57,088 nucleotides of DNA from a virus. Each line of letters begins with the position of its first letter. The first letter of the stretch is position 1. A program made the position numbers and the translations under genes. The notes under the pieces were generated by a model, which saw only the letters and a program-made list of their open reading frames with translations, made no database searches and was not told the origin of the DNA. The stretch lies in IMG/VR virus record IMGVR_UViG_3300010232_000003. The stretch is one strand, 5' to 3'. Of the stretch, positions 5,974 through 56,749 are shown one piece after another.

Positions 5974-6063
5974 CGTTACAGTAAAAGATAAACACCGGAA
6001 GTTAAAAAGTGTAACCCTCTCCACCGCGCAGCGTAGTAACCCGAGCTCATCTCAGTGCATTAT

Positions 6064-6084
6064 CTTACTATAGTAACAACACCC
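6064..6084 (-). promoter_or_regulatory. Partial third copy of the dyad-promoter element (CTTACTATAGTAACAACACCC)
   Basis: Shares cttactata..aacaacacccatca with 34907-34936 and with the reverse complement of 38596-38625. Confidence 0.45.
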
Positions 6085-29688: not shown

Positions 29689-31281
29689 TCACCACACGAG
29701 TCTCGTCGGGCTCCCAGACGGCTCGGCTCGAGCCGCCCACGTCGCCATGTACGCGGCGTCGAGCAAATCGGGTGATTTCCCGAGGTGTTCCTTGACGTCG
29801 TCTTTCGACGTCGCTTGGAACACTGTTTCTTCCCGTGACTTATAGTACTTCTCCTCGATCTCGATCGTCCGAGCAGCGGCGAGGAGCTCTTCGCGTAACC
29901 GGCGACTATTGAACACGCCGCCATCGCGGAGGAACTGACCGAGCTTGTACAAGCCCTCAGTCCATCGGTCGTAGTACTCAGTGGACTCAGCTGCTTTTTC
30001 CCCCGCGTTGAACCTGACGAGCTCGTCGTGGAACGAGTGCACGCGATCCGCGAGCCCTGAGCCCTCGCCTTGCGCGTCCATCGCGACGGCGACGCCATCC
30101 CAGTCTTCGAGGTGATTCCTGACCTTCGACTCGTTCGCGTTGTGATCGACGCCTTGCCAGCGCCCGTGCACGCGTATCACGTCGCTGTGCTTCGCCGCGA
30201 GGACGTTGTGATCCCCGCCTTTCCGAGCGACGTCTAACCCGACGCCTTGCGGTATCGCGGTACTGATATCAGGGGAGCGCTCGTACGCTTCCTCGACGTC
30301 TTGCACGTTGAACGGCCGGAACACCATCGCGGAGTCCGGCGGCATCACGCCGGCGCGTCGACGATACCAGCGTTTATCCAAATCGTCGCGCTCCATGTGC
30401 GCGTGCCTCGCCCTCGACGCCCCGGGTTTGAGCACGTCGACGAGCTCGTCACGCGTCAAATCGCCGTTTTGAACGCGGTCTTTCAGCTCGGAAACCCCGG
30501 GGTACTCGCCGTCGCTCCACTGCTCCTCGGCCCTTGGCCACGGTTCCGTGTTCCAGTCCTCCCAATCCGCGGCCACGGTGACGAGATCCACGATACCCGG
30601 GATGCGCTCGTCGTCCAACTCGTCCATATCGACTTGGACGTTATGAGCTTCGAACGACGACAACTCGAGGACGTGCCACCGGGACTCGTCTTGCATCAAG
30701 TCGTACACGACGTTCGTCTCGTCTTCCGGTGGATTCGCCACGGCGATCATTCGATCGTTCATATCCGTCACCGAGGACCCGGCGCTATCGAAGTGCTCCC
30801 CCGTGATATACGCTTTATCAGCTTCCTCGATGACGATGAGAACATCAGCTGCGTGCCTGCCCTCGAGGTCCCCCGGGTCCCGTGGGCTCACGACCTTGAA
30901 AAACCATTCGTCGTCGAGCTCGAGTTTCGGTTGATTCCCGTCGTAGACACGAACCGGGATGTCGTGTTCGTCTCGGAGTTTCTTCGCGAGCGACTTCATC
31001 GGGTTCCACATCGTGTCGACGAATTGGCTATAGGAACCCGACGTCCCGAGACCGACGCTATCAGTGTTCGTCGCGATGAACGCGTCGCACAGCGCAGCGA
31101 TGACGTAGGATTTACCGAACCCGTTCGCGCCCACGACGAGTACGTGTTGATTCGTCGCGACCGCGCGGAGGATACGCTTCTGCGGCTCGGACACGTGGAG
31201 CTCGAGGAAATCCTCAGCGAAGCGAACGTAGCGATCGTCGCCCGACGTGTAATCACGTGGCGCTGGTTTCGATTGACTCAT
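29689..31281 (-). CDS. terL: Terminase large subunit
   Basis: Walker A VVGANGFGKSYV, Walker B LIVIEEAD, C-terminal nuclease-like half. Confidence 0.85.
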   Translation of the reverse strand: MSQSKPAPRDYTSGDDRYVRFAEDFLELHVSEPQKRILRAVATNQHVLVVGANGFGKSYVIAALCDAFIATNTDSVGLGTSGSYSQFVDTMWNPMKSLAKKLRDEHDIPVRVYDGNQPKLELDDEWFFKVVSPRDPGDLEGRHAADVLIVIEEADKAYITGEHFDSAGSSVTDMNDRMIAVANPPEDETNVVYDLMQDESRWHVLELSSFEAHNVQVDMDELDDERIPGIVDLVTVAADWEDWNTEPWPRAEEQWSDGEYPGVSELKDRVQNGDLTRDELVDVLKPGASRARHAHMERDDLDKRWYRRRAGVMPPDSAMVFRPFNVQDVEEAYERSPDISTAIPQGVGLDVARKGGDHNVLAAKHSDVIRVHGRWQGVDHNANESKVRNHLEDWDGVAVAMDAQGEGSGLADRVHSFHDELVRFNAGEKAAESTEYYDRWTEGLYKLGQFLRDGGVFNSRRLREELLAAARTIEIEEKYYKSREETVFQATSKDDVKEHLGKSPDLLDAAYMATWAARAEPSGSPTRLVW

Positions 31282-34227: not shown

Positions 34228-34490
34228 GAGTCTCCCCCGAATTTCTCCTGGACGAGAACCATTTGTTCCTCTGAGAGAAACCCGTGTAGTGAAAGTAGTT
34301 GCTCCCTCGGGACCACGCCCTCGCTCACGAGGGACGTAACTACTTCAGCGATTCGATGGTCGACTGGGTACCCGTTTAGTGCGAGTCGGTAGATTCGATA
34401 CGCGCTCGCGTCGGTTTCGACGACAGTGACGTCGTCGCGGAAGTGCTCACGCGTCGCAGCGCCCGGACCCACGATGTCACCGATGTTCAT
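34224..34490 (-). CDS. Hypothetical protein
   Basis: Trimmed to ATG 34490, which makes an ATGA overlap with the upstream stop. Confidence 0.5.
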   Translation of the reverse strand: MNIGDIVGPGAATREHFRDDVTVVETDASAYRIYRLALNGYPVDHRIAEVVTSLVSEGVVPREQLLSLHGFLSEEQMVLVQEKFGGDS

Positions 34491-34693
34491 CGGCCCCTCC
34501 ATTCGTCGAGATCGATCGTCACCGTGATGGTCACGGATGCCGGGACGTCGAACTGGTGTCGCTCCTCGACGTAGATCCACTCGTGCTCGTTCGCGATGCA
34601 CTGTACGTCGTCGAGGTTGCCCTGGTCGATCGTGACCTCCGTGCTGTACTCGTTCCTGCTCACGTATCGTCGTAGCTCGTCGAGTGCCTCCAT
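34487..34693 (-). CDS. Hypothetical protein (first gene of the leftward operon)
   Basis: 68-aa acidic ORF. TATA-like GTAAGTCTT (34725-34733) lies about 30 nt upstream. Confidence 0.5.
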   Translation of the reverse strand: MEALDELRRYVSRNEYSTEVTIDQGNLDDVQCIANEHEWIYVEERHQFDVPASVTITVTIDLDEWRGR

Positions 34694-34814: not shown

Positions 34815-34838
34815 CTGCCTTGTTACCGAGCAAGACAG
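34815..34838 (-). promoter_or_regulatory. Conserved hairpin block 1, left copy
   Basis: 24/24 identical to the reverse complement of 38695-38718. Internally CTGCCTTG-N8-CAAGACAG. Confidence 0.7.
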
Positions 34839-34896
34839 AACGTGTCAACTCAATAGACAGATCCACGCCGCGTAGCGACCCACAGCACCATCGCGA

Positions 34897-34929
34897 AACG
34901 GTGTTGCTTACTATAATAAGAACAACACC
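34897..34929 (-). promoter_or_regulatory. Dyad-flanked TATA element block 2, left copy
   Basis: 33/33 identical to the reverse complement of 38596-38628. GGTGTTG-N16(TATAATAAG)-CAACACC. Confidence 0.7.
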
Positions 34930-35066
34930 CATCACTTACATACAGAGCCCGTCAAAATCAGCGTCAGCCGTATCGACGACTTCGCTTCGCTAGAGACACC
35001 GCCGCGGTACTGGCGATCCTCGAGAACGGGCGGGGCGCAGTGAAGTCTTTGATCGTTGCGCGAGCG

Positions 35067-35678
35067 TTACTGGCTCGGATGGACTTCGTCGCCCCACGCG
35101 TCCCATCCGTCCCTGGATTCCCTACTGAATAGTTCTAGGCGAGGGAGGGCATTGGATAGTTCTTCAGCTAGCCGGTAGGATTTCGCGGGTTTCGAGCTGT
35201 GCTCGGTGCGTTCTGCTAGGATGTAGTTCGGAACGTCGTTTCGATCCGTGGCTTTGTTTCCTTTGGCGCAGAACAGGATGTGTTCAGTGCAGTTCCGGAG
35301 GTAGTGTCCCATCCCGATGTGTTCGTTTATTGGCGTTGGTTCGTCGCGCTCGTGAGGTAGCCCGTTGGGTTCATCGGTTACTTTTAGCCAGGTGATGATG
35401 GTTTTTTGTTCGAATCCCCACGCGTTAGCTACGTGCATCGCTTGCTCGATGAAGGAATTCGTGAACCATAGGTACAGGTGGGCTGTTGGAGCAGTCGCTT
35501 TTCGTATCTGTGGTCCCATCCCGGCCACTGTGCCGTTGTGCAGTGTATCGTAGTGCGAGTCGCTTCCGCGGCCTGGCCCTGGGAGATCGTCGTCGTACGC
35601 CCACGGAGGGTCGGCCATCAGGGTTCGGTATTCGTTGTTCGGGATGGGCGGTAGTTGCGGGAAGTGTAAGTCAGACAT
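35067..35678 (-). CDS. MT-A70-family N6-adenine DNA methyltransferase
   Basis: LMADPPWAY (DPPW catalytic motif). 203 aa. Confidence 0.85.
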   Translation of the reverse strand: MSDLHFPQLPPIPNNEYRTLMADPPWAYDDDLPGPGRGSDSHYDTLHNGTVAGMGPQIRKATAPTAHLYLWFTNSFIEQAMHVANAWGFEQKTIITWLKVTDEPNGLPHERDEPTPINEHIGMGHYLRNCTEHILFCAKGNKATDRNDVPNYILAERTEHSSKPAKSYRLAEELSNALPRLELFSRESRDGWDAWGDEVHPSQ

Positions 35679-35706
35679 CTGTACGTGTTATATTACACGT
35701 ATCACA

Positions 35707-35715
35707 ATAAGTCTT
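35707..35715 (-). promoter_or_regulatory. Class-A TATA-like box
   Basis: ATAAGTCTT on the plus strand, about 30 nt upstream of ATG 35678. Confidence 0.55.
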
Positions 35716-35743
35716 TCTCTTACTGTCACGCAATGCGTGACGG

Positions 35744-36325
35744 TTAGAGCTCGAGGATCGAGCCAGTCGGGATCTCGTCGAGCTCGCTCGACTGCACGAC
35801 TCGCGGGGACTCGAGGTCATCCGTGGTGACCCTGAAGCGCCCCGAGTACACGAGCGCCCGGGCCGTGTCAGTGACGACGATAAACGTTTCACTCGTGAGC
35901 GCGCCAAGCGACTCGACCGCGTCGCGGAGCTCGACGCCGTCCTCGAGGCGTGCTTCGAGTTCACGGGCCACGTGCCACGAGTCCGCACGGCCATCGTGTG
36001 GAGCGTCGTGCCACGTGCCGTTGTGCGCGAGCGCCGCTGTGCGCGACGCACCCCCGGGTTCGTGCCAGTGAATCAAGAACGGGTGCGCGTTCTCCTCCGT
36101 GATCTCGCCGCGAGTCGCGAGTCGCGTGTGTACGAGCGCGACCTCGGCCTCGGGGCTCATCGCGAACGTGTCGATGGTCCCGACCTGTGTGAACGTCTCG
36201 AGTTTCTCGCCATCGGAGATCGCGTAGCCCCAAGAGTGCCCGCCGCTCGCGTCCTCGTGTCGTTGGCACGCGTCGATCCCCGAGGCGAGCGGGGAGTCGC
36301 CGCGCTGCGCAGTCATCCAGCACAC
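35744..36325 (-). CDS. Class-II (Ntn) glutamine amidotransferase-like protein
   Basis: GTG-TGC start gives an N-terminal Met-Cys. GGAGG lies 8 nt upstream. ..GHSWGYA..VHTRLATRG..NAHPF. Confidence 0.65.
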   Translation of the reverse strand: MCWMTAQRGDSPLASGIDACQRHEDASGGHSWGYAISDGEKLETFTQVGTIDTFAMSPEAEVALVHTRLATRGEITEENAHPFLIHWHEPGGASRTAALAHNGTWHDAPHDGRADSWHVARELEARLEDGVELRDAVESLGALTSETFIVVTDTARALVYSGRFRVTTDDLESPRVVQSSELDEIPTGSILEL

Positions 36326-36400
36326 TGTTGATCGCCTCCGTTATGGGACCTCATATCCATTTAGACTATAGACTGGTAAGACAATAAATCTTACTCTTTA
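36326..36400 (-). promoter_or_regulatory. Diverged class-A promoter/leader cassette (overlaps the stop of the HNH gene)
   Basis: Gene-sense TAAGATTTATTGTCTTACCAGTCTATAGTCTAAATGGATATGAGGTCCCA. Confidence 0.5.
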
Positions 36401-36873
36401 TGTCTCTGTTTATGACACGACCTGCACAGCGTTACGAGGTTATCCAGATCATCGTTCCCGACGTCACCATCGATGTGATGAACGTCGAGCTGTATGTCGT
36501 GAGGATACTCGTCTTGTACGACGTCACAGTCTTGACACGCATAGTTATCACGTCGACGTGCAGGTGCTTTCCCTGACCTCGTCCCGTACTGTCGCTCTGG
36601 ATTCCATCGAGGGTGCTGCTCTCCGCTACGCCCATACATACTGTTATTCGTGCCACGCTGTGATTGACTTAGTTTACGTCGATGTTCTTCATCGAACTCG
36701 GGCGTCGTTGGTGGATTCTCGTTCTCGTCTTTGAGCTGCTGTGGGAGTTCCCCGTGCGCTGTGCCGTAGTGGATGTTTCGTCCATGCACTGAGTCGAACT
36801 CGTGGTCACACTCCGGGCAATCGACCATGTGTCGAATTATGTGTTGCACTCCGATAAAAGTTTTCACTGTCAC
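36391..36873 (-). CDS. Homing-type endonuclease: one C2H2 zinc finger plus HNH
   Basis: CPECDHEFDSVHGRNIHYGTAH. LDVHHIDGD..NLVTLCRSCH. The maximal ORF starts at GTG 36873, but ATG 36828 (MVDCPEC) is probably the real start. Confidence 0.8.
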   Translation of the reverse strand: MTVKTFIGVQHIIRHMVDCPECDHEFDSVHGRNIHYGTAHGELPQQLKDENENPPTTPEFDEEHRRKLSQSQRGTNNSMYGRSGEQHPRWNPERQYGTRSGKAPARRRDNYACQDCDVVQDEYPHDIQLDVHHIDGDVGNDDLDNLVTLCRSCHKQRHKE

Positions 36874-36953
36874 GCATTGCGCGACGGAAGGGGAGCGTGT
36901 GAGGAAGGGTGTGGTGCGTGACAGTTAATCGCCACGGCGCCCCTGTTCGGGCA

Positions 36954-37028
36954 CGTCACCTGTCCTTCGCGCTTCAGCCAGGTGAGCGGCTGGGATCGAA
37001 CCAGCTGCCTTCCATGTACACGTAAGGC
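36954..37028 (-). ncRNA. T-arm-containing structured RNA element in the leader of the HNH gene
   Basis: RNA: GCCUU-N12-AAGGC, then A, then GCUGG-UUCGAUC-CCAGC, then a 9-bp hairpin CG(C)UCACCUG..CAGGUGACG stacked on it. Confidence 0.3.
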
Positions 37029-37038
37029 CCGTAACGCC

Positions 37039-37047
37039 ATAAGTCTT
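37039..37047 (-). promoter_or_regulatory. Class-A TATA-like box
   Basis: ATAAGTCTTACTCTTAC on the plus strand, the same as in the 38282-38300 copy. Confidence 0.5.
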
Positions 37048-37279
37048 ACTCTTACACACTGACATGGCTGTGTGAGCAGGGCGAACAGCAGTGACTCATC
37101 GTCTCGCGAACCACCGAGGCGTACTGCGCGCCGCTTCGAGCAGCGTTACCCCCATGCTAAACACGCTCCAAACACCGCTACAGCAGCTTCGAGCGCGAAA
37201 CCCGGTCTCAAACACCGATATCTCAGCTGTTCACAGCTCGAAAACCGCGTCGAGACCGCTGCGAATACCTCGAGGAGCG

Positions 37280-38242
37280 CTACACCTCGTCCCAGCGCCG
37301 GTCGTCCACCATGCTCCAAAACCGAGAGCCCTCGTCGACCCTCCACGCTTCGCGACCCAAGTCCTCCGGGCCCGACTCGTGTCTCCCGTCGATCCGAGCC
37401 ATCGTGAACGCTTTGACGCGATCCTTGTAATTCCCGTGATCCGTGCCCATCGACCCGAGGATCGCTCGAAGCACCTCGAGCGCGTTGTCGAACTCCTCGC
37501 CGACCCCGGGGATCCCGCGCCCGTCCTCGAATTCAATGGACCCCGCGTCGCGGAGCGCCTCGATCGGGTCGTTCGCGTCGTACGCCGCGTCGTAGATCTC
37601 CGCGATGACCCTGGAGCGATCCCCAGCGAGTTTGGGTGACCATCCCTTCTCCACGCAGCGCCCCGCGACCCTCCGGAGGAACAACAACCCCACGATGGCT
37701 CGAGCCGGGTGCGCCTCGTTCATCCGGAGCTCGAGCGTGAGCGGTTTCCCGGAGTAATCCGCGCCGTTCATCGTGACGGCGTCGTAGCTCCGTGATTGAC
37801 TCCGAGGGTTGGAGACCATCGATTGCAGTGTGTCCTGCGAGTACCGCGTCGTCGTGGGGCTCGCCCATCGAGCGACTGAGTCCCTATAGCCGTTGGTCCA
37901 GTCCGCGCAGAACAACGGGAGCATGAATGGCGCGAGCTCGATGACGGTGTTGTGCGTGATGGTCCAGGCTTGGAGCTCGTCGTCGAAATCCGAGCCGACG
38001 TTGAGATGAACGTGGCTCCCGCACCCAGCGCCACCAGTGGTCTCGTTGTGCCACGTCCACGTCGAGCCGTCGCAGTCGTCCTTGAACGCGTTGAGAATGG
38101 ATTTGACTTGGTTGTACGCGCCGTAATCGGTTTCTTGGGGACCGCTACCGTCCCTGTGCCAGTCGTCGCCTTGCACGACGTCTCGCGGCGCTTGGTCGGG
38201 ATCTTGCTCGATTTCCATGCCGTGGGAGTAGTCGTAATACAT
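37280..38242 (-). CDS. Glutamine-synthetase-like amidoligase (Amidoligase_2-type)
   Basis: HGMEIE, GCGSHVHLNVG and TLELRMNE resemble the G.E.E / G.HVH / .E.R signature. Confidence 0.6.
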   Translation of the reverse strand: MYYDYSHGMEIEQDPDQAPRDVVQGDDWHRDGSGPQETDYGAYNQVKSILNAFKDDCDGSTWTWHNETTGGAGCGSHVHLNVGSDFDDELQAWTITHNTVIELAPFMLPLFCADWTNGYRDSVARWASPTTTRYSQDTLQSMVSNPRSQSRSYDAVTMNGADYSGKPLTLELRMNEAHPARAIVGLLFLRRVAGRCVEKGWSPKLAGDRSRVIAEIYDAAYDANDPIEALRDAGSIEFEDGRGIPGVGEEFDNALEVLRAILGSMGTDHGNYKDRVKAFTMARIDGRHESGPEDLGREAWRVDEGSRFWSMVDDRRWDEV

Positions 38243-38300
38243 GGGACCTCTTTTCCATTTAGACTAATGGCCGGTATCACAATAAGTCTTACTCTTACAC
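38243..38300 (-). promoter_or_regulatory. Class-A promoter/leader cassette, full copy
   Basis: The reverse complement is nearly identical (1 mismatch in ~56 nt) to 56690-56746. Confidence 0.75.
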
Positions 38301-38413
38301 ATACCGCACCGCGTGGCGACACCCACCCATCAGCGCGCAACAGAACCATCAAGAACCAAACCGCACTGAACGGAGGCGGGCTTGGGCAGTGTTGCAAGGC
38401 TATGGCTGGTTCA

Positions 38414-38470
38414 GCGGGCAGCGAGCTACGTGGCGGGCAGCGAGCTACGTGGCGGGCAGCGAGCTACGTG
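38414..38470. repeat. Three perfect tandem 19-bp repeats (GCGGGCAGCGAGCTACGTG) plus a degenerate fourth
   Basis: Copies at 38414-38432, 38433-38451 and 38452-38470, read directly. Confidence 0.9.
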
Positions 38471-38595
38471 ACGGCGGCGAAGCAGTACGTCCGTGCTTGA
38501 AGCGCCGGGAATCGCGTCTTGGAACGGTATGTGAGTGCGTTCTTGCTCTGTTGTATCGGTATGTGAGACGGGAGGGTATTGGCTTCAATTGGATT

Positions 38596-38628
38596 GGTGT
38601 TGTTCTTATTATAGTAAGCAACACCGTT
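38596..38628 (+). promoter_or_regulatory. Dyad-flanked TATA element block 2, right copy
   Basis: GGTGTTGTTCTTATTATAGTAAGCAACACC, reverse complement of 34897-34929. Confidence 0.7.
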
Positions 38629-38694
38629 TTCCTGTCGTCGCTGTAAGACAGTAAGACTTGTTTTCATCTGTTAACACGTCGATTTTTATTCAAG

Positions 38695-38718
38695 CTGTCT
38701 TGCTCGGTAACAAGGCAG
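38695..38718 (+). promoter_or_regulatory. Conserved hairpin block 1, right copy
   Basis: Reverse complement of 34815-34838. Confidence 0.7.
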
Positions 38719-38906
38719 CGAGACAGTTTCGGAATAGTGTAAACAAAGGCTCTACGCGACTACCCTCGTTGGAAACAAGCGAAAGAGGTAAGTTTATCAC
38801 GGTTCGAGCCCTACCAATATCCGTGCAAGCGTTCAACCCGCTCGCGTCAGCACACGGCCGCGGACGCCACGATTCACGGCTCAAAATAGTACAGCAAATA
38901 AGCGAC

Positions 38907-39305
38907 ATGGAGAACGAATTCACGCATCGAGACATCGAGATAGACTTATCTCGACAGCAGGTCTCAAAGGCACTCAGGCAAGCCCGCGACGAAGGCTCGC
39001 TCGAGCTCGTGTACACCGATACCTACGACAAACCCGGCTCGCTGCGATGGTACCGATTAACCGAGACCGGCGAACAAGCCATCATCGACGGGATGGCGTC
39101 GTTCCACGAATCACTCGTCACAGCGATAATGCAAGACGTCACCGACGAGCTCGTGCCCGAGCACCACGCTCGCGAGATCGCGAAAGACCAATTCATCGAG
39201 TTATTCAGCGAGGAAACACTCCAGCTAGCCCGGACCAAGGGCGACGCGCAAGAACACGACTGGCGCCGCGCAGCTCGGCTATTCAAGGAACTAACAGACA
39301 TGTGA
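38907..39305 (+). CDS. Winged-helix transcription regulator (putative)
   Basis: Trimmed to ATG 38907. LSRQQVSKALRQARDEGSLELV..WYRLTETGEQAI. Confidence 0.55.
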   Translation: MENEFTHRDIEIDLSRQQVSKALRQARDEGSLELVYTDTYDKPGSLRWYRLTETGEQAIIDGMASFHESLVTAIMQDVTDELVPEHHAREIAKDQFIELFSEETLQLARTKGDAQEHDWRRAARLFKELTDM

Positions 39306-39409: not shown

Positions 39410-39583
39410 ATGTCCTGGCAGTGCGTGAAAGCCGCCGCGGTGCACTACGAGGTCCAGGATTGGACGTCGCGCGTAGATCCCGAGTTAACCTATCAAGAGA
39501 ACATCGAGCTAATGCGCAAACGCGGCTCCGGTCGATCGATGAAAGAGATGCCTATCAGAGTGATCGAGTCTCGTCCCAAATAA
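39410..39583 (+). CDS. Hypothetical small protein
   Basis: ATG 39410. The frame is also open from GTG 39302, which overlaps the upstream stop. Confidence 0.35.
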   Translation: MSWQCVKAAAVHYEVQDWTSRVDPELTYQENIELMRKRGSGRSMKEMPIRVIESRPK

Positions 39584-39971
39584 ACTCCGTGTACTCGATC
39601 GCGTCAAGCACGGCGCGTAGCTCCGCTTCGCCGCGGGTGACGGTACACGCGTCACCATCGAGATGCGCCGTGGGATGCTCGGTGGGCTCGGGTTCCCAGT
39701 GCGCGCTGAGCTCGACGCCGTCGTCAGCGATCCACCCCCTGACGTGTGTTTGCCACCACTCGACGCCGCGGTGTTCCTCGTAGACTACTCTCGCGAGGTT
39801 GACGTCTTCACCGCGATAGTTGTAACTGTACTCCCAGTTCGGCGCGAACGACTGTGCCCCGAGGGCGCGCGTCACGTCGCTCACAGTGGCGTCGGCGAGG
39901 AAGTACCTCCCGGAGGGCCGGGGTTTCGTAAAGAATCGCTTCCTGAACGCGCGGAGCGCGTCTAGCGACAT
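39555..39971 (-). CDS. Hypothetical protein
   Basis: 138-aa ORF. Confidence 0.55.
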   Translation of the reverse strand: MSLDALRAFRKRFFTKPRPSGRYFLADATVSDVTRALGAQSFAPNWEYSYNYRGEDVNLARVVYEEHRGVEWWQTHVRGWIADDGVELSAHWEPEPTEHPTAHLDGDACTVTRGEAELRAVLDAIEYTEFIWDETRSL

Positions 39972-40537
39972 CGTGGCACGCTCCGCGGTTGCATGGATAA
40001 ATCACCGTACGTGATGGTTTTTTCTCCAACGGGTTTATGCACGTCTTCGAACGTCTCCGTGATCTCACCGGTAGTAGGCTTCGTCGCTACGCGTGGCTCG
40101 GCGCTCTCACCGTGATTCGTGAACCATCCTGTGAGTTCGTGTGTCTCGGTCGAGTTCACTGTGTCGATCGCTCGCTCCGCGAACGCGTTCATCGCCCCCA
40201 TGACGTGGTCCTCGTCCATCTCGAGTAAATCCCTGTGAGGGACTCGGTAATTGAACTGTGCACGCGTCGCGACGTCGCGATCGCTGTAATCCATGGTCCA
40301 TCGCCACGTGGTATCCGTGACGTCGACGTCGAGGTAATCGCTCGTCGACTCCCACTCGACGAGTTCGGGTGACGCGGGCGGGTGGTCGTCTGGGACGTGT
40401 GGTATCGGGTCGTCTTTATCGCGTAGCGATTGGCAGTCGTCGCGCAGGTCGCGTAGCGTCTCTGGGTGGCACCAAGCGCTCCACTCGACGCCGAATGGCT
40501 CGTCTCTGAGTGTCTCCCAGATCTGTTGTTCGTTCAT
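39962..40537 (-). CDS. Hypothetical protein
   Basis: 191-aa acidic ORF. CTTTTTATC box upstream. Confidence 0.6.
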   Translation of the reverse strand: MNEQQIWETLRDEPFGVEWSAWCHPETLRDLRDDCQSLRDKDDPIPHVPDDHPPASPELVEWESTSDYLDVDVTDTTWRWTMDYSDRDVATRAQFNYRVPHRDLLEMDEDHVMGAMNAFAERAIDTVNSTETHELTGWFTNHGESAEPRVATKPTTGEITETFEDVHKPVGEKTITYGDLSMQPRSVPRCR

Positions 40538-40620
40538 GTGATGTCAGTACCTTTTTTGACGTGTAGAAGGTAGTGTTTGAAAGATAAAAAGCGTTGCTTT
40601 GCGCGCACGGTCTATAATAA

Positions 40621-40674
40621 AAAGAGAAAGACTTATTGTGATACCAGCCATTAGTCTAAATAGAGGTCCCACGG
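40621..40674 (+). promoter_or_regulatory. Class-A promoter/leader cassette (copy with a 5-nt deletion)
   Basis: AAAGAGAAAGACTTATTGTGATACCAGCCATTAGTCTAAATAGAGGTCCCACGG followed by ATG. Confidence 0.7.
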
Positions 40675-41127: not shown

Positions 41128-42008
41128 TACGACAAATCGGGTTCCCTGCCACGGACTCGATCGCTCAAGATATGAATCTGGCCATTCCCAGTGTGATAAC
41201 TGTTATTCATCACGGTGACGTGTGAATACCCATAGGCCTCGACGAAGTCGTCTTGATCGGGCTCGTGGTTGTCGTGGGACAACCCGAGACAATGCCCGAT
41301 CTCGTGTAGCGTCGAGTTAATCGAGTACCCGAGCCCGCCGTAGTGCCGTTCACGGATACACGCGTCGTCTCTCCATGGCTCGTGGTCGACTGGACCATCG
41401 AGCTTGTGGAGGTTCACGACGCAGTAGTGCCCACCGCCCTCCCCGTACACCCCGGGAAGGTGACCGATGAGCGCGTTCGCGTGCTTCGCTCGGTTCTCCG
41501 ACGTTAATTGGTGCCAGTAGTACTCTTTGAACGCGACGAACCACGATCCGTGATGGTCACGAGAGTCTTTATCGATCGGTAACGGTTCGGGGTGGATGAC
41601 GCAGTCGACTTCGTAGCCCTCGCCCCAAGCTTCCTCGTAACAGTACTCGACGTAGGGCTTCGCCATCTTGCACGCCCACTCGCCGAGCGCGTCGCCGACG
41701 CGCCAATACAGTCGTACCTCGATGGTCTCGTCGCCAACGCCGCGATGCGGCGGGTCCACGCACGGGTTCGGTGGCCACGTGATGTCGAGCGACTCGTCGC
41801 TCGAGCGATTCACGTCCTCCGTCTCTTCTTCGTCGTCGTCGCTGGGTGGCGTGTGCTCCTCGACTGGAGGGTCTTCAGTCTCGTTAACGTCACTCTCAGT
41901 GTCACGCGTCTCTTCGACGTCCTGGTCACTACTAGTGTCGGTCTGGTCGCCGCTATCAGTGCGCCTGAACCGTTCGAGCAGCGCTCGTAGTAACTGGTAT
42001 AGGTTCAT
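41124..42008 (-). CDS. Metzincin-like zinc metalloprotease
   Basis: HEIGHCLGLSH fits HExxHxxGxxH. Trimmed to ATG 42008, which makes an ATGA overlap with the Ro60-like stop. Confidence 0.65.
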   Translation of the reverse strand: MNLYQLLRALLERFRRTDSGDQTDTSSDQDVEETRDTESDVNETEDPPVEEHTPPSDDDEEETEDVNRSSDESLDITWPPNPCVDPPHRGVGDETIEVRLYWRVGDALGEWACKMAKPYVEYCYEEAWGEGYEVDCVIHPEPLPIDKDSRDHHGSWFVAFKEYYWHQLTSENRAKHANALIGHLPGVYGEGGGHYCVVNLHKLDGPVDHEPWRDDACIRERHYGGLGYSINSTLHEIGHCLGLSHDNHEPDQDDFVEAYGYSHVTVMNNSYHTGNGQIHILSDRVRGREPDLSY

Positions 42009-43540
42009 GGCTCGTATGCTTGAATGTCGTCTAGTAAACTGTTCTCGGCGTGCCAGATATAATCCAACACGCCGTCGTTCCATCCCTGCAGTCTCGTGAC
42101 GCCCGGATAGTTCTCTGGGAACTTGATCTCGCCGTAACTCGCCAAGTCCACGATGTACAAGTACGGTTCCTCGGAGTGCATCTCGCGAAGCCTCTCCCAC
42201 GCACCACGGAACGCGTTCGGGTCGTTACCGTACCGCTGTCTCTCCCAGATCTGGAAATCAGTGAACACCACGACTCTATCAGGAACGACTTCCCCATCAG
42301 TAGACTCGTCCGCGATGAACTCGAGCGCCTTGTGAGCGAACGTGCTACTCCCGACATCCGTGGACACGATCGCTTCTTGCAACGAGAGCACACTGTTCTC
42401 GAGCGGGTCAACGGGGACACGAGTCGCTGTATCAGCGAACGCGATGACATCCGAGCGTCTCTGACCGAGCATCGCGCCGAACAACGCCGCGATCTCGACG
42501 CGACTGAGGTCACTCCGGTTCGACACCCGTTGTTGCATCGAGCCCGACAGGTCCACGAGCGTCGCTGTGTGTACGAGCTCGTCTGGCACGGTTTCACACG
42601 CGACGTTCACCGCGTTCTCGAGCCACTGGTGCGCGTAGCGATCCATCTCAACAGCGCCCTTGAGTGCTTTCCGCGCTTGGTAGAACCTGAACGGGTATAG
42701 TTGACTGTTCCGGATCCACTCGTCGCTCGCGTCCTCGAGGATTTCTTCACCAGTCAGCCCGGCTTCGAGCATGTTCCGTAAGTTCCGGACCCGAGCGAAT
42801 AACCCCATGTCGTCGAGTACGAGACGCCAGTCATTAGCCGTGACGTCGCCGTCTTGCCCAGCTGCACTGATGGTGTCTTCCCACGTACGTCTCTGGCTGA
42901 GAGACTGTACGTCTGGATACGCGTCCTTCCCTCCCTTGGTTATCCTATTCGCGATCTCAGACTGTTCCTCGACCGGTTCTGGACTGTCCTCGTACCCATA
43001 TGGGTGCACTTGGTTGAACACGTCGTGCATCGAGACCGCTCGGTGCCCTTGTCGGTACTTCGCGTACTGGTACGCGTCGAACGACGCGTCCTCGATCACG
43101 TCAGCGATGGCTCGTTTCAAGACCCATGGAACCGTCGCGGAGAAATCACCCGGACCGTCACCAGCAACGGTGTTGTTAAACGCGAGCGTCGTGCAGAGCT
43201 CGTCAGCTCGATCGATCACGTGGCTCGCGTATCGTCGAACGTAGTGCTTCGCGTCGTCGTGGCGCGCGCTGAGCACGAGTAATACTTGCGGGACGTCTCG
43301 AACGTATGCGTCTCGTCGCGCCCACGCAGCGAGTCGCAACGGGAACTCGGGATCCACGTTCGCAGCTGCTTGGAAGCGCTCGACGAGTTTCTCGAGCGAC
43401 TCCGAGTCGTCCTCGTAGTACGTGTCCTCGAGTAAGTTAGTAATCGTGACCATTCGAAGCGCTTCACGTGGGTCACTGATCTCGTGGCTATGGCCACCAG
43501 CGAGGTTCCGCGCTTCTGTTTTAGACGAGTTCAAGTCCAT
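42005..43540 (-). CDS. Ro60-like TROVE-domain protein with C-terminal vWA (MIDAS) domain
   Basis: Trimmed to ATG 43540. NLAGGHSHE, YQYAKYRQGHRAVSMHDVFNQVHP, LFARVRNLRNMLEAGL, QLYPFRFYQA, LVDLSGSM. Confidence 0.75.
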   Translation of the reverse strand: MDLNSSKTEARNLAGGHSHEISDPREALRMVTITNLLEDTYYEDDSESLEKLVERFQAAANVDPEFPLRLAAWARRDAYVRDVPQVLLVLSARHDDAKHYVRRYASHVIDRADELCTTLAFNNTVAGDGPGDFSATVPWVLKRAIADVIEDASFDAYQYAKYRQGHRAVSMHDVFNQVHPYGYEDSPEPVEEQSEIANRITKGGKDAYPDVQSLSQRRTWEDTISAAGQDGDVTANDWRLVLDDMGLFARVRNLRNMLEAGLTGEEILEDASDEWIRNSQLYPFRFYQARKALKGAVEMDRYAHQWLENAVNVACETVPDELVHTATLVDLSGSMQQRVSNRSDLSRVEIAALFGAMLGQRRSDVIAFADTATRVPVDPLENSVLSLQEAIVSTDVGSSTFAHKALEFIADESTDGEVVPDRVVVFTDFQIWERQRYGNDPNAFRGAWERLREMHSEEPYLYIVDLASYGEIKFPENYPGVTRLQGWNDGVLDYIWHAENSLLDDIQAYEP

Positions 43541-43542
43541 GG

Positions 43543-43794
43543 TTAGAACCTCTCGTCCTCCGCGGTGAACACGACGCCGTCCTCGACGACTTCGACTGTC
43601 CCAAGAACGTATTCTTCCTCGATGGTTTTCTCCGTCGTGACGATGAGCTCCGGGATGGTCTCGACGCCGAATCGATCCATCGCTTGACGCTCGATGGACG
43701 CTACGTCGTCCTCGCTGAGCTCGGATCTCGCGTCGCTCGGGACGTGTAATCGTGGCTCGTCGTCTTTCTTGACCTCGACGTTGAAATCGTTCAT
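43543..43794 (-). CDS. Small acidic hypothetical protein
   Basis: 83 aa. GAGGT lies 10 nt upstream. Stop is 2 nt before the Ro60-like start. Confidence 0.6.
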   Translation of the reverse strand: MNDFNVEVKKDDEPRLHVPSDARSELSEDDVASIERQAMDRFGVETIPELIVTTEKTIEEEYVLGTVEVVEDGVVFTAEDERF

Positions 43795-43869
43795 TGGTAT
43801 GTACCTCGGATGAGTGGGAACCGGGTGTTAGTGTCTTATGCCGTGTTAGACCACGTTGCCGTGCTGTGC

Positions 43870-43934
43870 ACGACAAGTCGCGATTCGAACGCGAGTCACT
43901 CGCGCTAGATGCGAAGTAACCGGTTCCCTTGCCG
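43870..43934 (-). ncRNA. 65-nt tRNA-like element U2 (acceptor stem, T-arm, 7-nt loop AUCUAGC, vestigial D region)
   Basis: CGGCAAG/CUUGUCG (one G-U). UCGCG-UUCGAAU-CGCGA. UUCGC-AUCUAGC-GCGAG. Confidence 0.35.
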
Positions 43935-44035
43935 AGTGCGCCGGAGCCCGTCGTGTGCCCGCGAGTCCTCCAGGTCCGCACGACGGCACGCGGTCACTGG
44001 ATGTGTCCCTTCCGGGACGGCGAGCTGTTTTCGCT

Positions 44036-44143: not shown

Positions 44144-44147
44144 GCAG

Positions 44148-44222
44148 TTGCGAGGGATGGACTCGAACCATCGGTTTCACGGGCATGAGCCGTGCGGAGT
44201 AGCCTAGCTGTCCTACCTCGCA
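44148..44222 (-). tRNA. tRNA with anticodon CAU (Met, or Ile2 if modified)
   Basis: Hand-folded cloverleaf: acceptor UGCGAGG/CCUCGCA, U8, D-loop with GG, anticodon arm CACGG-CUCAUGC-CCGUG, T-arm GAUGG-UUCGAGU-CCAUC, discriminator A. Confidence 0.85.
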
Positions 44223-56689: not shown

Positions 56690-56749
56690 GTAAGAGAAAG
56701 ACTTATTGTGATACCGGCCATTAGTCTAAATGGAAAAGAGGTCCCAACG
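56690..56749 (+). promoter_or_regulatory. Class-A promoter/leader cassette, full copy
   Basis: TGTAAGAGAAAGACTTATTGTGATACCGGCCATTAGTCTAAATGGAAAAGAGGTCCCAACG followed by ATG. Confidence 0.75.

What the first reader, a model, noticed from the sequence alone, without database searches (positions are those of the whole stretch)
34815..38718. 3.9-kb cassette (MT-A70 methylase, class-II GATase, HNH, GS-like amidoligase) bounded by inverted copies of two conserved blocks
The cassette is bracketed by a 24-nt block (34815-34838 against 38695-38718) and a 33-nt block (34897-34929 against 38596-38628). Both pairs are perfect reverse complements and keep the same order with 57-66 nt spacing. Inside are a DPPW adenine methyltransferase, an Ntn-type glutamine amidotransferase-like protein (Met-Cys start) and a glutamine-synthetase-like amidoligase (G.E.E / G.HVH / .E.R motifs). 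As far as I recall, comparative-genomics work has noted GATase-like and amidoligase genes as a conserved neighbourhood. Next to a cytosine-modification toolkit, this pair could add an amino-acid-type moiety to a modified base or to a protein. That idea is speculative.
Basis: partly seen in the sequence, partly recalled or inferred. Interest (0 to 1): 0.7.

Follow-up and report, generated by a model that had tools for sequence, protein, structure and literature searches.

The report
Amidoligase–glutaminase island between mirrored regulatory sites
In a haloarchaeal tailed virus, a conserved enzyme pair (an ATP-dependent amide-forming ligase and a glutaminase) and two strain-variable inserted genes lie between mirror-image copies of a control sequence. 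These copies most likely regulate the neighbouring outward-facing genes, not flip or move the segment.

Summary
Both block pairs are perfect reverse complements (24 nt; 33 nt, extending to 34), and chance expectation is about 6e-6 and 6e-12. All four gene calls hold: MT-A70 methylase, class-II (Ntn) glutamine amidotransferase, and HNH/NUMOD3 endonuclease. The 320-aa protein has no Pfam hit, but its AlphaFold model (pLDDT 92.7) matches only glutamine-synthetase-fold carboxylate-amine ligases (PafA, YbdK, GCL, GS).

The "cassette" reading is not supported.
- A 91-96 % identical relative lacks both the methylase and the HNH gene.
- No recombinase was found in the window.
- All junctions seen in five related viruses have the same orientation.
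- PhiCh1 and ChaoS9 carry the ligase-GATase pair without such repeats.

The blocks sit 100-230 nt upstream of two outward-facing units: the late/packaging operon and a winged-helix-like regulator gene. A third copy of the B33 core precedes the replication operon. The left and right copies co-vary within each virus. I read them as shared promoter/operator elements.

The ligase-GATase pair is an archaeal-virus version of the known, still uncharacterised phage "amidoligase + GAT-II" neighbourhood. Eight of 45 homologues carry a C-terminal helix-hairpin-helix domain, a weak hint of action on DNA. The substrate is unknown.

The parts
34896..34929 (-). B33, left copy. It is a dyad (GGTGTTG...CAACACC) around a TATA-like core, TGTTCTTATTATAGTAAG. 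It reads outward on the minus strand, 203 nt upstream of the ATG at 34693.
   Evidence: Perfect 34-nt inverted match to 38596-38629. The core is conserved in diverged relatives.
34815..34838 (-). B24, left copy. It is an imperfect dyad, CTGTCTTG-N8-CAAGGCAG, 122 nt upstream of the ATG at 34693.
   Evidence: Perfect 24-nt inverted match to 38695-38718. The close relative's left copy differs at 3 positions.
38596..38629 (+). B33, right copy. It reads outward on the plus strand, 194 nt upstream of the GTG at 38823.
38695..38718 (+). B24, right copy, 105 nt upstream of the GTG at 38823.
6064..6081 (-). Third, partial copy of the B33 core (GGGTGTTGTTACTATAGTAAG). It has one half-site plus a palindromic TATA-like centre. 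It lies 40 nt upstream of the GTG at 6024, the first gene of the nuclease/PolB unit.
   Evidence: Two mismatches to the 18-nt core, against 0.02 matches expected by chance.
37280..38242 (-). GS/GCS-fold carboxylate-amine ligase (amidoligase-like), 320 aa. It is the homologue of PhiCh1 ORF41/42 and ChaoS9_220 and belongs to phrog_23742.
   Evidence: No Pfam hit. The AF2 model has pLDDT 92.7. Foldseek top hits are PafA, YbdK, Dop, GCL, GmaS and GS.
36391..36873 (-). HNH + NUMOD3 endonuclease, a free-standing homing-endonuclease-like insertion between the ligase and the GATase.
   Evidence: Pfam HNH 2.1e-7 and NUMOD3 9e-6. PHROG HNH families. In the 91-96 % identical relative a ~60-aa ORF takes its place. 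GC3 is 0.52 against about 0.70 genome-wide.
35744..36325 (-). Class-II (Ntn) glutamine amidotransferase domain protein, 193 aa, with N-terminus Met-Cys-Trp-Met-Thr. It is the homologue of PhiCh1 ORF40 and ChaoS9_215.
   Evidence: GATase_4 1.9e-5 (24.2 bits, cutoff 23) and GATase_6 3e-5. phrog_26360 1.4e-38. The HTRxATxG and NAHP motifs align to the GlmS glutaminase domain. The MCWMT start is shown for the window, its close relative and L011.
35067..35678 (-). MT-A70-family N6-adenine DNA methyltransferase (DPPW motif), a strain-variable insertion.
   Evidence: Pfam MT-A70 2.4e-25. phrog_359 4.6e-51. PADLOC MTase_II 1.4e-45. It is absent from the close relative. The nearest phage homologues are bacterial-phage methylases at about 35 % identity.
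38243..38298 (-). Portable promoter-leader repeat (…AGTAAGACTTATTGTGATACCGGCCATTAGTCTAAATGGAAAAGAGGTCCC-ATG) in front of the ligase gene. Further copies lie at 36343-36400 (GATase), 35679-35723 (methylase), about 37010-37058 (HNH, degenerate), 40620-40664 and 56690-56735.
   Evidence: Direct-repeat families D1 and D2. The core AG(A/T)AAGACTTAT has 11 copies in the window against 0.09 expected.
38823..39305 (+). Outward-facing gene to the right of the blocks: a 160-aa protein, a probable winged-helix DNA-binding regulator. The assignment is tentative.
   Evidence: The N-terminus from GTG 38823 is conserved with P0172. There are weak PADLOC hits to the wHTH parts of Csa3 (2.9e-4) and AbiEi (3.8e-3). 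The AF2 model is poor (pLDDT 46.6) but shows an H-H-beta-hairpin pattern. There is no Pfam or PDB sequence hit.
34487..34693 (-). First gene (68 aa) of the outward-facing leftward unit. That unit runs through small genes into the presumed terminase (assigned by position only; no family hit), portal and head genes.
   Evidence: ORF map. Portal, Mu-F-like and capsid genes lie downstream on the same strand; the 530-aa ORF at 29689-31281 has no Pfam hit. The promoter-like motif GTAAGAAAGACTTAC lies 22-37 nt upstream of the ATG.
38414..38474 (.). Three tandem 19-nt repeats (GCGGGCAGCGAGCTACGTG) in the 580-nt gap between the ligase gene and the regulator gene. Their role is unknown.
   Evidence: (D3)

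Best explanation
The interval is an accessory-gene island lying between two divergently transcribed units of a haloarchaeal siphovirus-like genome. It is not a discrete invertible or mobile cassette.

(1) The inverted blocks. They are two copies of one cis-regulatory region: B33, a dyad around a TATA-like core, followed 57-65 nt later by the dyad B24. Each copy lies 100-230 nt upstream of an outward-facing unit, in the sense orientation. On the left this is the late/packaging operon starting at 34693. On the right it is a winged-helix-like regulator gene starting at about 38823. A third, partial B33 copy precedes the nuclease/PolB unit at 6024. Inferred: one DNA-binding factor, possibly the adjacent regulator, recognises B33 and B24. 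This would co-ordinate these units and explain why the two copies stay identical and co-vary.

(2) The core of the island. It is a conserved two-enzyme module. Inferred mechanism: Cys1 of the Ntn glutaminase, exposed after Met removal, hydrolyses glutamine. The GS-fold ligase uses ATP to activate a carboxylate as an acyl-phosphate and forms an amide bond, either with the released ammonia or with an amine. Alternatively, the GATase-like protein trims a gamma-glutamyl adduct made by the ligase. The substrate is unknown.

(3) The variable genes. The HNH and MT-A70 genes are strain-variable insertions into slots of this island. Each is preceded by its own copy of a portable promoter-leader repeat.
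For: Shown:
- The blocks are perfect while the sequence between and around them is only about 50-59 % identical. This is conservation in islands, not a recent duplication.
- Both copies have the same orientation and similar distances relative to the outward-facing genes.
- The third B33-core copy lies 40 nt upstream of another transcription unit.
- 15 of 17 core positions of B33 and 12 of the first 16 positions of B24 are invariant in a six-sequence alignment (both copies of the window and of its close relative, plus L004 right and L005 left). Comparable cores, always pointing away from the module, were also seen by eye in L015, L016 and L022.
- In virus C (L005 and L022, 98 % identical in their overlap) the left and right copies share virus-specific variants that differ from the window's.
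- The close relative is collinear and keeps both copies of B33 but lacks the HNH and MT-A70 genes.
- No integrase or resolvase appears among the ORFs scanned.
- Ligase: AF2 pLDDT 92.7; all top Foldseek hits are GS-fold ligases; acidic/His/Arg motifs are invariant even in distant homologues; one distant homologue hits Pfam GCS2 at 5e-8.
- GATase: Pfam and GlmS motif alignment.
- Ligase-GATase adjacency is conserved in PhiCh1, ChaoS9, several uncultivated haloviruses and two of the three distant, apparently non-halophilic loci examined.
- The promoter motif is present in 11 copies, one before each island gene.
- Similar repeats upstream of ORFs are reported for Hardycor1, the virus with the closest capsid protein.
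Against: - No transcript, transcription-start or binding data exist, so the promoter/operator role is inferred from position and conservation only.
- B33 lacks the purine-rich BRE-like stretch of this virus's main promoter motif.
- A canonical-looking promoter lies between B24 and each start codon, so B33 and B24 could act at the RNA level instead.
- The regulator's wHTH assignment is weak.
- The perfect identity and co-variation of the two copies could come from gene conversion, which implies some recombination between them.
- For the enzymes: no Pfam Amidoligase_2 hit, TM-scores are only 0.4-0.5, and no biochemical data exist for any member.
- Context clues to the substrate conflict. HhH fusions point to DNA. 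S8 peptidase and GNAT neighbours in distant homologues point to peptide or protein.
Confidence: 0.55

Rival explanations
1. Invertible or mobile cassette. The inverted blocks are recombination sites at which the 3.7-kb segment flips or is exchanged as a unit, as in the PhiCh1 int1 tail-fibre segment or the phiH L-segment.
For: - There are two perfect inverted repeats in conserved order.
- The left and right copies co-vary within a virus, which gene conversion between the copies would also produce.
- The window's left B24 equals its right copy, whereas the relative's left copy carries the GTCGG variant also seen in L015.
Against: - No tyrosine or serine recombinase or transposase was found in the window.
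- Every junction observed in five related viruses has the same orientation.
- The island genes carry their own promoters, so flipping would switch nothing obvious.
- The content between the blocks differs between close relatives by simple gene replacement.
- PhiCh1, ChaoS9 and L010 carry the ligase-GATase pair without flanking repeats.
- A third B33 copy lies elsewhere in the genome.
Confidence: 0.05
2. RNA-level elements. B33 and B24 are hairpins in long 5' leaders, or B33 is a terminator-like hairpin followed by a T-run. They would control read-through, stability or processing of the outward transcripts; they would not be protein-binding DNA sites.
For: - Both blocks fold as hairpins. In the outward sense B24 pairs with a G·U, where the opposite strand has a C·A mismatch.
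- B33 is followed by GTTT(T).
- The outward-sense RNAs fold better than shuffled sequences (z = -3.4 and -2.4).
- The left and third copies lie downstream of same-strand genes.
Against: - The B33 stem is not kept in L004, L005 or the third copy, while the unpaired core is invariant.
- The B24 stem shrinks to 5-6 bp in relatives without compensatory changes.
- The right copy has no upstream same-strand gene to terminate.
- There is no Rfam match.
Confidence: 0.2
3. The ligase-GATase pair is a DNA hypermodification enzyme set. It would add or amidate a group on a base in viral DNA, possibly working with the pyrimidine toolkit elsewhere in the genome.
For: - Eight of 45 ligase homologues carry a C-terminal HhH domain. 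The best two score 32.6 and 37.3 bits against a cutoff of 27. The domain resembles those of RadA, UvrC and ComEA.
- Lee et al. 2022 report that amidoligase and amidotransferase genes of unknown function co-occur with thymidine-hypermodification clusters.
- The window encodes two divergent ThyA-like proteins and dCTP-deaminase-like, dUTPase, MazG and UDG-family proteins.
Against: - The pair lies more than 13 kb from those genes.
- The first 50 kb of PhiCh1 shares with the window only the ligase-GATase pair, so it lacks those ThyA-like genes there. ChaoS9 and the last 8.5 kb of PhiCh1 were not checked.
- The window's own ligase has no HhH domain.
- No 5-HMUDK or aGPT-Pplase-type Pfam hit appeared in the window.
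- Distant homologues sit next to S8 peptidase and GNAT genes, which suggests peptide or protein chemistry.
Confidence: 0.2

Closest known systems
Phage 'amidoligase + class-II GATase' neighbourhood (Iyer, Abhiman, Burroughs & Aravind 2009; Pfam Amidoligase_2 with GATase_6), found for example in LUZ24-like Pseudomonas phages (UFV-P2 ORF23-25), OM43 phages and Poseidoniales viruses
   Same: - A GS-fold ATP-dependent ligase is encoded next to an Ntn glutaminase-type protein in a virus genome.
- The function is uncharacterised in all cases.
- In UFV-P2 an HNH gene also sits between the two genes.
   Different: - The haloviral ligase is not detected by the Amidoligase_2 model. The window protein has no hit at E<=10, and only 1 of 45 family members hits, at E = 0.18.
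- The GATase is a bare 193-aa Ntn domain, compared with 486 aa in UFV-P2.
- Some members carry HhH domains.
PhiCh1 ORF41/42 + ORF40 and ChaoS9_220 + ChaoS9_215 (Vertoviridae)
   Same: - They are direct homologues: about 46-47 % identity for the ligase and 42-43 % for the GATase.
- The gene order is the same.
- The GATase is already annotated as 'putative glutaminase / class-II GATase'.
   Different: - In those viruses the two genes are 4 nt apart and are followed by ORF39 and an HTH gene (ORF38).
- There are no flanking inverted blocks.
- The rest of the window shares no detectable genes with the parts of PhiCh1 and ChaoS9 that were compared.
- The ligase partner is annotated only as 'uncharacterized protein'.
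YbdK/GCS2 carboxylate-amine ligases and the Pup ligase PafA / deamidase Dop
   Same: They are the best structural matches (Foldseek E 5e-5 to 2e-4, probability 1.0). The motif pattern of acidic, His and Arg residues is the same. They lack the N-terminal beta-grasp domain of true glutamine synthetases.
   Different: TM-scores are only 0.4-0.5 with 12-13 % identity. There is no sequence-level hit to any PDB chain. No Pup-like or proteasome genes are nearby.
PhiCh1 int1 invertible tail-fibre segment
   Same: It is a segment of a halovirus genome bounded by inverted repeats.
   Different: The PhiCh1 segment encodes its own tyrosine recombinase between the repeats. Its inversion swaps tail-fibre gene ends. 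Here there is no recombinase, no gene crosses the repeats, and no orientation variants were seen.
Repeats upstream of ORFs in halovirus Hardycor1 (Dyall-Smith et al. 2021)
   Same: [quoted passage not shown] Hardycor1 has the closest capsid protein to the window's (40 %).
   Different: The sequences are different. The window has two motif classes: the 11-copy promoter-leader and the 3-copy B33.

Membership tests
MT-A70 N6-adenine methyltransferase (PF05063) | Full-length match to the family model above the curated cutoff | tested here: met
   89.9 bits against a cutoff of 23.9, covering profile positions 1-172 of 172. phrog_359 at 4.6e-51.
MT-A70 N6-adenine methyltransferase (PF05063) | Catalytic DPPW motif | tested here: met
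   …LMADPPWAYDD… in the translation.
Class-II (Ntn) glutamine amidotransferase | Nucleophilic Cys as the first residue after the initiator Met | tested here: met
   GTG-TGC start giving MCWMT in the window. MCWMT is also shown in the close relative and L011, and MCGIGG in distant homologues.
Class-II (Ntn) glutamine amidotransferase | Match to a class-II GATase model above the curated cutoff | tested here: met
   GATase_4 scores 24.2 bits against a cutoff of 23, which is marginal. GATase_6 scores 24.4 against 27 and fails.
Class-II (Ntn) glutamine amidotransferase | Glutamine-binding motifs (HTRxATxG, NAHP, HNG) | tested here: met
   HTRLATRG and NAHP align to HTRWATHG and NAHP of GlmS. AHNG is in the translation.
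Class-II (Ntn) glutamine amidotransferase | Glutaminase activity | not testable with these tools
   This needs an enzyme assay.
Pfam Amidoligase_2 (PF12224) | Match to the family model | tested here: not met
   The window protein has no hit at E<=10. One of 45 family members hits at E = 0.18. None of 51 distant homologues hits.
GS/GCS-fold carboxylate-amine ligase superfamily | Glutamine-synthetase-type catalytic fold | tested here: met
   The AF2 model has pLDDT 92.7. The five matches with E <= 0.001 are PafA (two chains), YbdK (1r8g and 1tt4) and Dop. All 50 rows printed are GS-fold ligases (PafA/Dop, YbdK, GCL/glutathione synthetase, GmaS and other GS-like enzymes), most with E between 0.001 and 0.05. 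TM-scores of 0.4-0.5 are moderate.
GS/GCS-fold carboxylate-amine ligase superfamily | Conserved metal/ATP/substrate residues (G.E.E, D..G..E, G.H.H, R, T.E.R.NE) | tested here: met
   These columns are invariant or nearly invariant in 45 close homologues and in 51 distant ones. One distant homologue hits Pfam GCS2 at 5.4e-8. The mapping of the residues to their roles is from memory of the superfamily and was not tested.
GS/GCS-fold carboxylate-amine ligase superfamily | ATP-dependent amide-bond formation | not testable with these tools
   This needs biochemistry.
Amidoligase + GAT-II conserved neighbourhood (Iyer et al. 2009) | Ligase and Ntn-GATase genes adjacent across diverse genomes | tested here: met
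   The genes are adjacent or separated by one or two small genes in PhiCh1, ChaoS9, L005, L008, L010, L011, L012, L015, L017 and L020/L021. No GATase was recognised in L019. The original paper could not be read.
Site-specific invertible DNA segment | Inverted repeats at both ends | tested here: met
Site-specific invertible DNA segment | Dedicated recombinase encoded in or next to the segment | tested here: not met
   No integrase or resolvase family appears among about 66 ORFs scanned. The remaining gaps hold structural-type ORFs. About ten ORFs of 52-79 aa were not scanned.
Site-specific invertible DNA segment | Both orientations found in populations or relatives | tested here: not met
   All junctions in the window, L008, L004, L005/L022, L015 and L016 have the same orientation. 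The sample is small and no read-level data were available.
Free-standing HNH homing endonuclease | HNH nuclease motif with a NUMOD-type DNA-binding module | tested here: met
   HNH 31.4 bits (cutoff 21.4) and NUMOD3 25.9 bits (cutoff 20.4).
Free-standing HNH homing endonuclease | Presence/absence polymorphism between otherwise near-identical genomes | tested here: met
   In the relative, 247 nt carrying a ~60-aa ORF replaces 559 nt, while the flanks are 95-96 % identical.

The most novel reading that the evidence does not exclude
The haloviral ligase-GATase pair, including its HhH-tethered variants, is a new kind of nucleic-acid modification system. In this reading a glutamine-synthetase-fold enzyme acts directly on DNA, or on a DNA-bound target, to form an amide-linked base modification in archaeal virus genomes. 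The B33/B24 sites would be the operators of a virus-specific switch that times the late and replication operons.
Probability: 0.15. Interest if true: 0.8.

Novelty: new variant of a known kind. Interest (0 to 1): 0.45.

Why it matters
- The phage amidoligase + GATase pair is widespread. It is found in LUZ24-like phages, marine phages and Poseidoniales viruses, and now in two unrelated groups of haloarchaeal tailed viruses. Its function has been an open question since 2009.
- This work puts a fold and a family on the partner protein, which is annotated only as 'uncharacterized' in PhiCh1 and ChaoS9. Both viruses have been isolated in culture, so the question becomes testable in the laboratory.
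- The HhH fusions give a concrete hypothesis about the substrate.
- The mirrored B33/B24 sites are a candidate regulatory code for an uncultivated halovirus lineage. Archaeal virus transcription control is poorly known, so this would be useful.
- None of this overturns current views. It mainly corrects the cassette reading and sharpens an existing puzzle.

Tried and rejected
- Megablast of the region against GenBank phages gave no match.
- Pfam at E<=10 on the 320-aa protein gave nothing. A profile search against PDB sequences gave only noise. NCBIfam and PADLOC gave nothing for the ligase.
- An exact-sequence look-up of the window's ligase in the assembly index found nothing on record.
- An exact B33 scan of JGI metagenome contigs gave 0 hits.
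- The Iyer et al. 2009 paper is not held, so its content is cited only through other papers and from memory.
- Rfam and tRNA scans found nothing in the interval.
- RNA folding of the blocks gave modest z-scores. The stems are not conserved, so I did not build a covariance model.
- AF2 of the putative regulator from a 2-sequence alignment was too poor (pLDDT 46.6) to use for a fold search.
- Composite transposon or IS: rejected, because no transposase was found and the inner content varies by gene replacement.
- Origin of replication for the 580-nt gap with 19-nt tandem repeats: considered but not testable here.
- B33 as an intrinsic terminator: rejected, because the right copy has nothing to terminate and the hairpin is missing in the third copy and in relatives.

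Full report
**1. The observation**

Direct comparison confirms both inverted pairs. Block B24 at 34815-34838 is the exact reverse complement of 38695-38718. Block B33 at 34897-34929 is the exact reverse complement of 38596-38628, and the match extends to 34 nt (34896-34929 / 38596-38629). Neither full block occurs elsewhere in the window at up to 6 mismatches. About 6e-6 and 6e-12 such pairs are expected by chance.

The two blocks keep their order. The spacers are 57 nt (left) and 65 nt (right). The spacers and the outer flanks align at only about 50-59 % identity. The blocks are therefore islands of perfect identity in otherwise diverged sequence. This pattern indicates selection or conversion acting on short functional sites. 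It does not look like a recent duplication.

Each block is itself a dyad. B33 is GGTGTTG-N16-CAACACC around TTCTTATTATAGTAAG. B24 is CTGTCTTG-N8-CAAGGCAG.

**2. The genome**

The window is a 57-kb haloarchaeal tailed-virus contig.
- The proteins are acidic and GC3 is about 0.7.
- It encodes a family-B DNA polymerase, a primase-polymerase, portal, Mu-F-like, HK97-type capsid and tape-measure proteins, two divergent ThyA-like proteins, a TROVE/VWA protein, an Nramp transporter and an intein-bearing helicase.
- Its capsid protein is closest to that of the siphovirus Hardycor1, at 40 % identity.
- It is not a PhiCh1-type virus. Among the ORFs I called in the window, only the ligase and the GATase find homologues in the parts of PhiCh1 and ChaoS9 that I compared: the first 50 kb of PhiCh1 and a 13-kb stretch of ChaoS9.

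**3. The genes between the blocks**

All four lie on the minus strand.
- **35067-35678.** An MT-A70 methyltransferase with a DPPW motif.
- **35744-36325.** A bare class-II glutamine amidotransferase domain. It starts Met-Cys, from a GTG codon. Its HTRLATRG, NAHP and HNG motifs align with the glutaminase domain of GlmS.
- **36391-36873.** An HNH + NUMOD3 endonuclease.
- **37280-38242.** A 320-aa protein with no Pfam hit even at E<=10. It belongs to phrog_23742, of unknown function. Its family has about 48 sequence clusters, all unannotated and mostly from hypersaline metagenomes.

An AlphaFold model of the 320-aa protein, built on 45 homologues, is confident (pLDDT 92.7, pTM 0.92). Foldseek against the PDB returns only glutamine-synthetase-fold carboxylate-amine ligases: PafA, YbdK, Dop, gamma-glutamylcysteine ligases, GmaS and GS. 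The best E-value is 5e-5, the probability is 1.0 and TM-scores are 0.4-0.5.

The invariant residues (G.E.E, D.SGP.E, GSH.H, R, T.E.R.N) remain invariant in distant homologues recovered by a profile search of 1.8 billion proteins. One of those homologues hits Pfam GCS2 at 5e-8, and none hits Amidoligase_2. The protein is not a member of Pfam Amidoligase_2 as that family is modelled.

**4. Is it one cassette?**

No.

A viral contig that is 91-96 % identical and collinear (IMGVR_UViG_3300046051_000019, L008) lacks both the HNH gene and the methylase. Each slot holds about 250 nt with a small ORF instead.

More distant relatives (L005, L015) also have a small ORF, not an HNH gene, between the ligase and the GATase.

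Each island gene is preceded by a copy of a portable promoter-leader repeat. Its core, AG(A/T)AAGACTTAT, occurs 11 times in the window against 0.09 expected. These direct repeats are plausible substrates for gene replacement.

GC3 is 0.83-0.84 for the ligase and the GATase, 0.64 for the methylase and 0.52 for the HNH gene. This fits separate origins.

The ligase-GATase pair alone is the conserved unit.
- It is adjacent in PhiCh1 (ORF41/42 + ORF40) and ChaoS9 (220 + 215). There it is followed by ORF39-like and HTH genes.
- It is adjacent in several uncultivated haloviruses.
- It stays linked in two of the three distant, apparently non-halophilic loci examined (L017, L020/L021; not L019). These also carry two conserved ~150-aa proteins, and some have S8 peptidase and GNAT genes nearby.
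- PhiCh1, ChaoS9 and L010 show no comparable flanking inverted repeats.

**5. What the blocks are**

In both copies the blocks face outward in the same order and lie upstream of an outward-facing gene.
- **Left:** B33, 57 nt, B24, then about 85 nt to a promoter-like GTAAGAAAGACTTAC, then the ATG at 34693. This gene is the first of a minus-strand unit that runs into the packaging and head genes.
- **Right:** B33, 65 nt, B24, then about 70 nt to GAGGTAAGTTTATCA, then the GTG at 38823. The gene encodes a 160-aa protein.

A homologue at 59 % identity conserves the N-terminus of that protein from the GTG. The protein gives weak hits to the winged-helix parts of Csa3 and AbiEi. Its AF2 model is poor, so "regulator" is tentative.

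A third copy of the B33 core (GGGTGTTGTTACTATAGTAAG, 6064-6081) lies 40 nt upstream of the first gene of the nuclease/PolB unit.

Relatives keep the architecture. In a six-sequence alignment, 15 of the 17 core positions of B33 (TGTT.TT.yTATAGTAA) and 12 of the first 16 positions of B24 are invariant. That alignment contains both copies of the window and of its close relative, plus L004 (right side) and L005 (left side). I also saw a comparable B33 core by eye in L015 (left), L016 (right) and L022 (right), and a B24-like block in L015 and L022. L016 ends at the B33 core, so B24 could not be checked there. In every case the element points away from the ligase-GATase module. The ligases of these relatives are 60-78 % identical to the window's.

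L005 and L022 come from the same virus, with 98 % identity over 1304 nt. Its left and right copies share variants (CTGTCTCGT.CGTTAAGAAGGCAGTCTTAC) that differ from the window's pair. The two copies therefore evolve in concert.

The B33 stem is not preserved in L004, L005 or the third copy, whereas the unpaired core is. This argues for a DNA sequence signal, not an RNA hairpin.

No integrase, resolvase or transposase was found. Every junction seen has the same orientation.

My reading is that B33 and B24 are shared promoter/operator elements that put the late operon, the regulator gene and, through the half-site, the replication unit under one factor. This rests on position and conservation. 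No expression or binding data exist. Gene conversion between the copies cannot be excluded and would imply occasional recombination.

**6. How the enzyme pair probably works**

From established knowledge of the two superfamilies:
- Ntn amidotransferases use the alpha-amino group and thiol of Cys1 to hydrolyse the amide of glutamine.
- GS-fold ligases phosphorylate a carboxylate with ATP and then transfer the acyl group to ammonia or an amine.

Two arrangements are known for such pairs.
- **Two-component amidation.** The pair acts as a glutamine-dependent amidotransferase that amidates a carboxylate.
- **Add and trim.** The ligase adds a gamma-glutamyl group and the GATase-like hydrolase later removes it. 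Examples from memory are EgtA/EgtC and PuuA/PuuD.

The preserved glutamine-binding motifs fit either arrangement.

The evidence on the substrate conflicts.
- Eight of 45 homologues carry a C-terminal HhH DNA-binding domain. The best score is 37.3 bits against a cutoff of 27. The domain resembles those of RadA, UvrC and ComEA.
- Lee et al. 2022 note that amidoligase and amidotransferase genes of unknown function occur in thymidine-hypermodification clusters.
- Against a DNA role tied to the pyrimidine toolkit: the first 50 kb of PhiCh1 has the pair but no homologue of the window's ThyA-like genes. ChaoS9 and the last 8.5 kb of PhiCh1 were not checked. The pair is more than 13 kb from the window's ThyA-like genes.
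- Distant homologues sit near peptidase and acetyltransferase genes, which suggests peptide or protein chemistry.

I put DNA modification at about 0.2.

**7. Comparison with what is known, and novelty**

The amidoligase + GAT-II neighbourhood is known from comparative genomics. It is widely annotated in bacteriophages and in Poseidoniales viruses. UFV-P2 even has an HNH gene between the two genes.

For haloarchaeal tailed viruses, the sources I read list only the GATase of PhiCh1 and ChaoS9. Their tables and GenBank records give the partner as "uncharacterized protein".

The new points are modest:
- the partner is a divergent GS-fold ligase family outside the current Pfam models;
- some members carry HhH domains;
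- the pair is shared by two unrelated halovirus groups;
- in this lineage the pair sits between mirrored regulatory sites.

I rate this as a new variant of a known kind, with interest 0.45.

Noticed in passing
window 9467-10393 (+) and 51015-51755 (+); other ORFs scanned: Two divergent thymidylate-synthase-like proteins score far below the ThyA equivalog cutoffs. dCTP-deaminase-like, dUTPase, MazG and UDG-superfamily proteins are also present. This is a pyrimidine toolkit that could make a modified pyrimidine such as a hydroxymethyl-pyrimidine.
   Followed up: partly
window 42005-43981 (-), 43870-43943 (-), 44147-44222 (-): A TROVE (Ro60-like) + VWA protein lies directly next to a tRNA-like gene. 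Rfam calls it tRNA at 52.7 bits and ARAGORN calls it tRNA-Met(CAT). ARAGORN also calls a 'tRNA-Pyl(cta)' inside the 5' end of the TROVE ORF. Ro60 orthologues usually sit beside Y-RNA genes that have tRNA-like modules, so this may be a viral Ro/Y-RNA pair.
   Followed up: no
window 44265-47273 (-); about 45200-46407: A helicase (ResIII/DEAD + Helicase_C) is interrupted by an intein, with Hint/intein splicing domains on both sides. The 91-96 % identical relative lacks 1.2 kb here, so the intein or its endonuclease part is polymorphic.
   Followed up: partly
window 48516-49757 (-): An Nramp-family divalent-metal transporter (1e-31) is encoded in a virus genome. This is an unusual auxiliary gene.
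   Followed up: no
window 38414-38474 and 38519-38567: Three tandem 19-nt repeats and a pair of 17-nt repeats lie in the 580-nt non-coding gap between the ligase gene and the regulator gene. They could be iterons or further binding sites.
   Followed up: no
window 35679-35723, 36343-36400, 38243-38298, 40620-40664, 56690-56735; L008 9360-9420 and 10210-10255: A ~45-56-nt promoter-leader unit is repeated at 84-100 % identity in front of accessory genes, including the replacement ORFs in the relative. It probably mediates gene swapping by homologous recombination.
   Followed up: partly
window 10837-13968 (-): A 1043-aa ORF of low GC (about 0.45-0.50) is built of about six repeated ~170-aa modules (IDDFED…EY.GDTS…). 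It is probably a modular tail-fibre or receptor-binding protein. My GC3-based gene picker missed it.
   Followed up: no
whole window: There is strong avoidance of CTAG (35 sites) and GGCC (72 sites), each against roughly 200-350 expected. TGCA is also low (114). GATC is not avoided (356).
   Followed up: no
L017 5559-8614; L020 2216-7113; L019 3258-8793: Distant ligase homologues lie in a larger conserved module. A ~152-aa protein overlaps the ligase start, and there is a second ~145-aa protein (all three loci). A 264-273-aa class-II GATase is present in L017 and L020/L021. A subtilisin-like S8 peptidase occurs in L019 and L020/L021, and a GNAT acetyltransferase in L020/L021. This hints at peptide or protein chemistry in that clade.
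   Followed up: partly
L008 5345-5644 and 6726-6975: The close relative has a ~300-nt in-frame insertion in the homologue of 39962-40537. It also has an extra ~85-aa CxxC-type gene between the homologues of 38823-39305 and 39555-39971.
   Followed up: no
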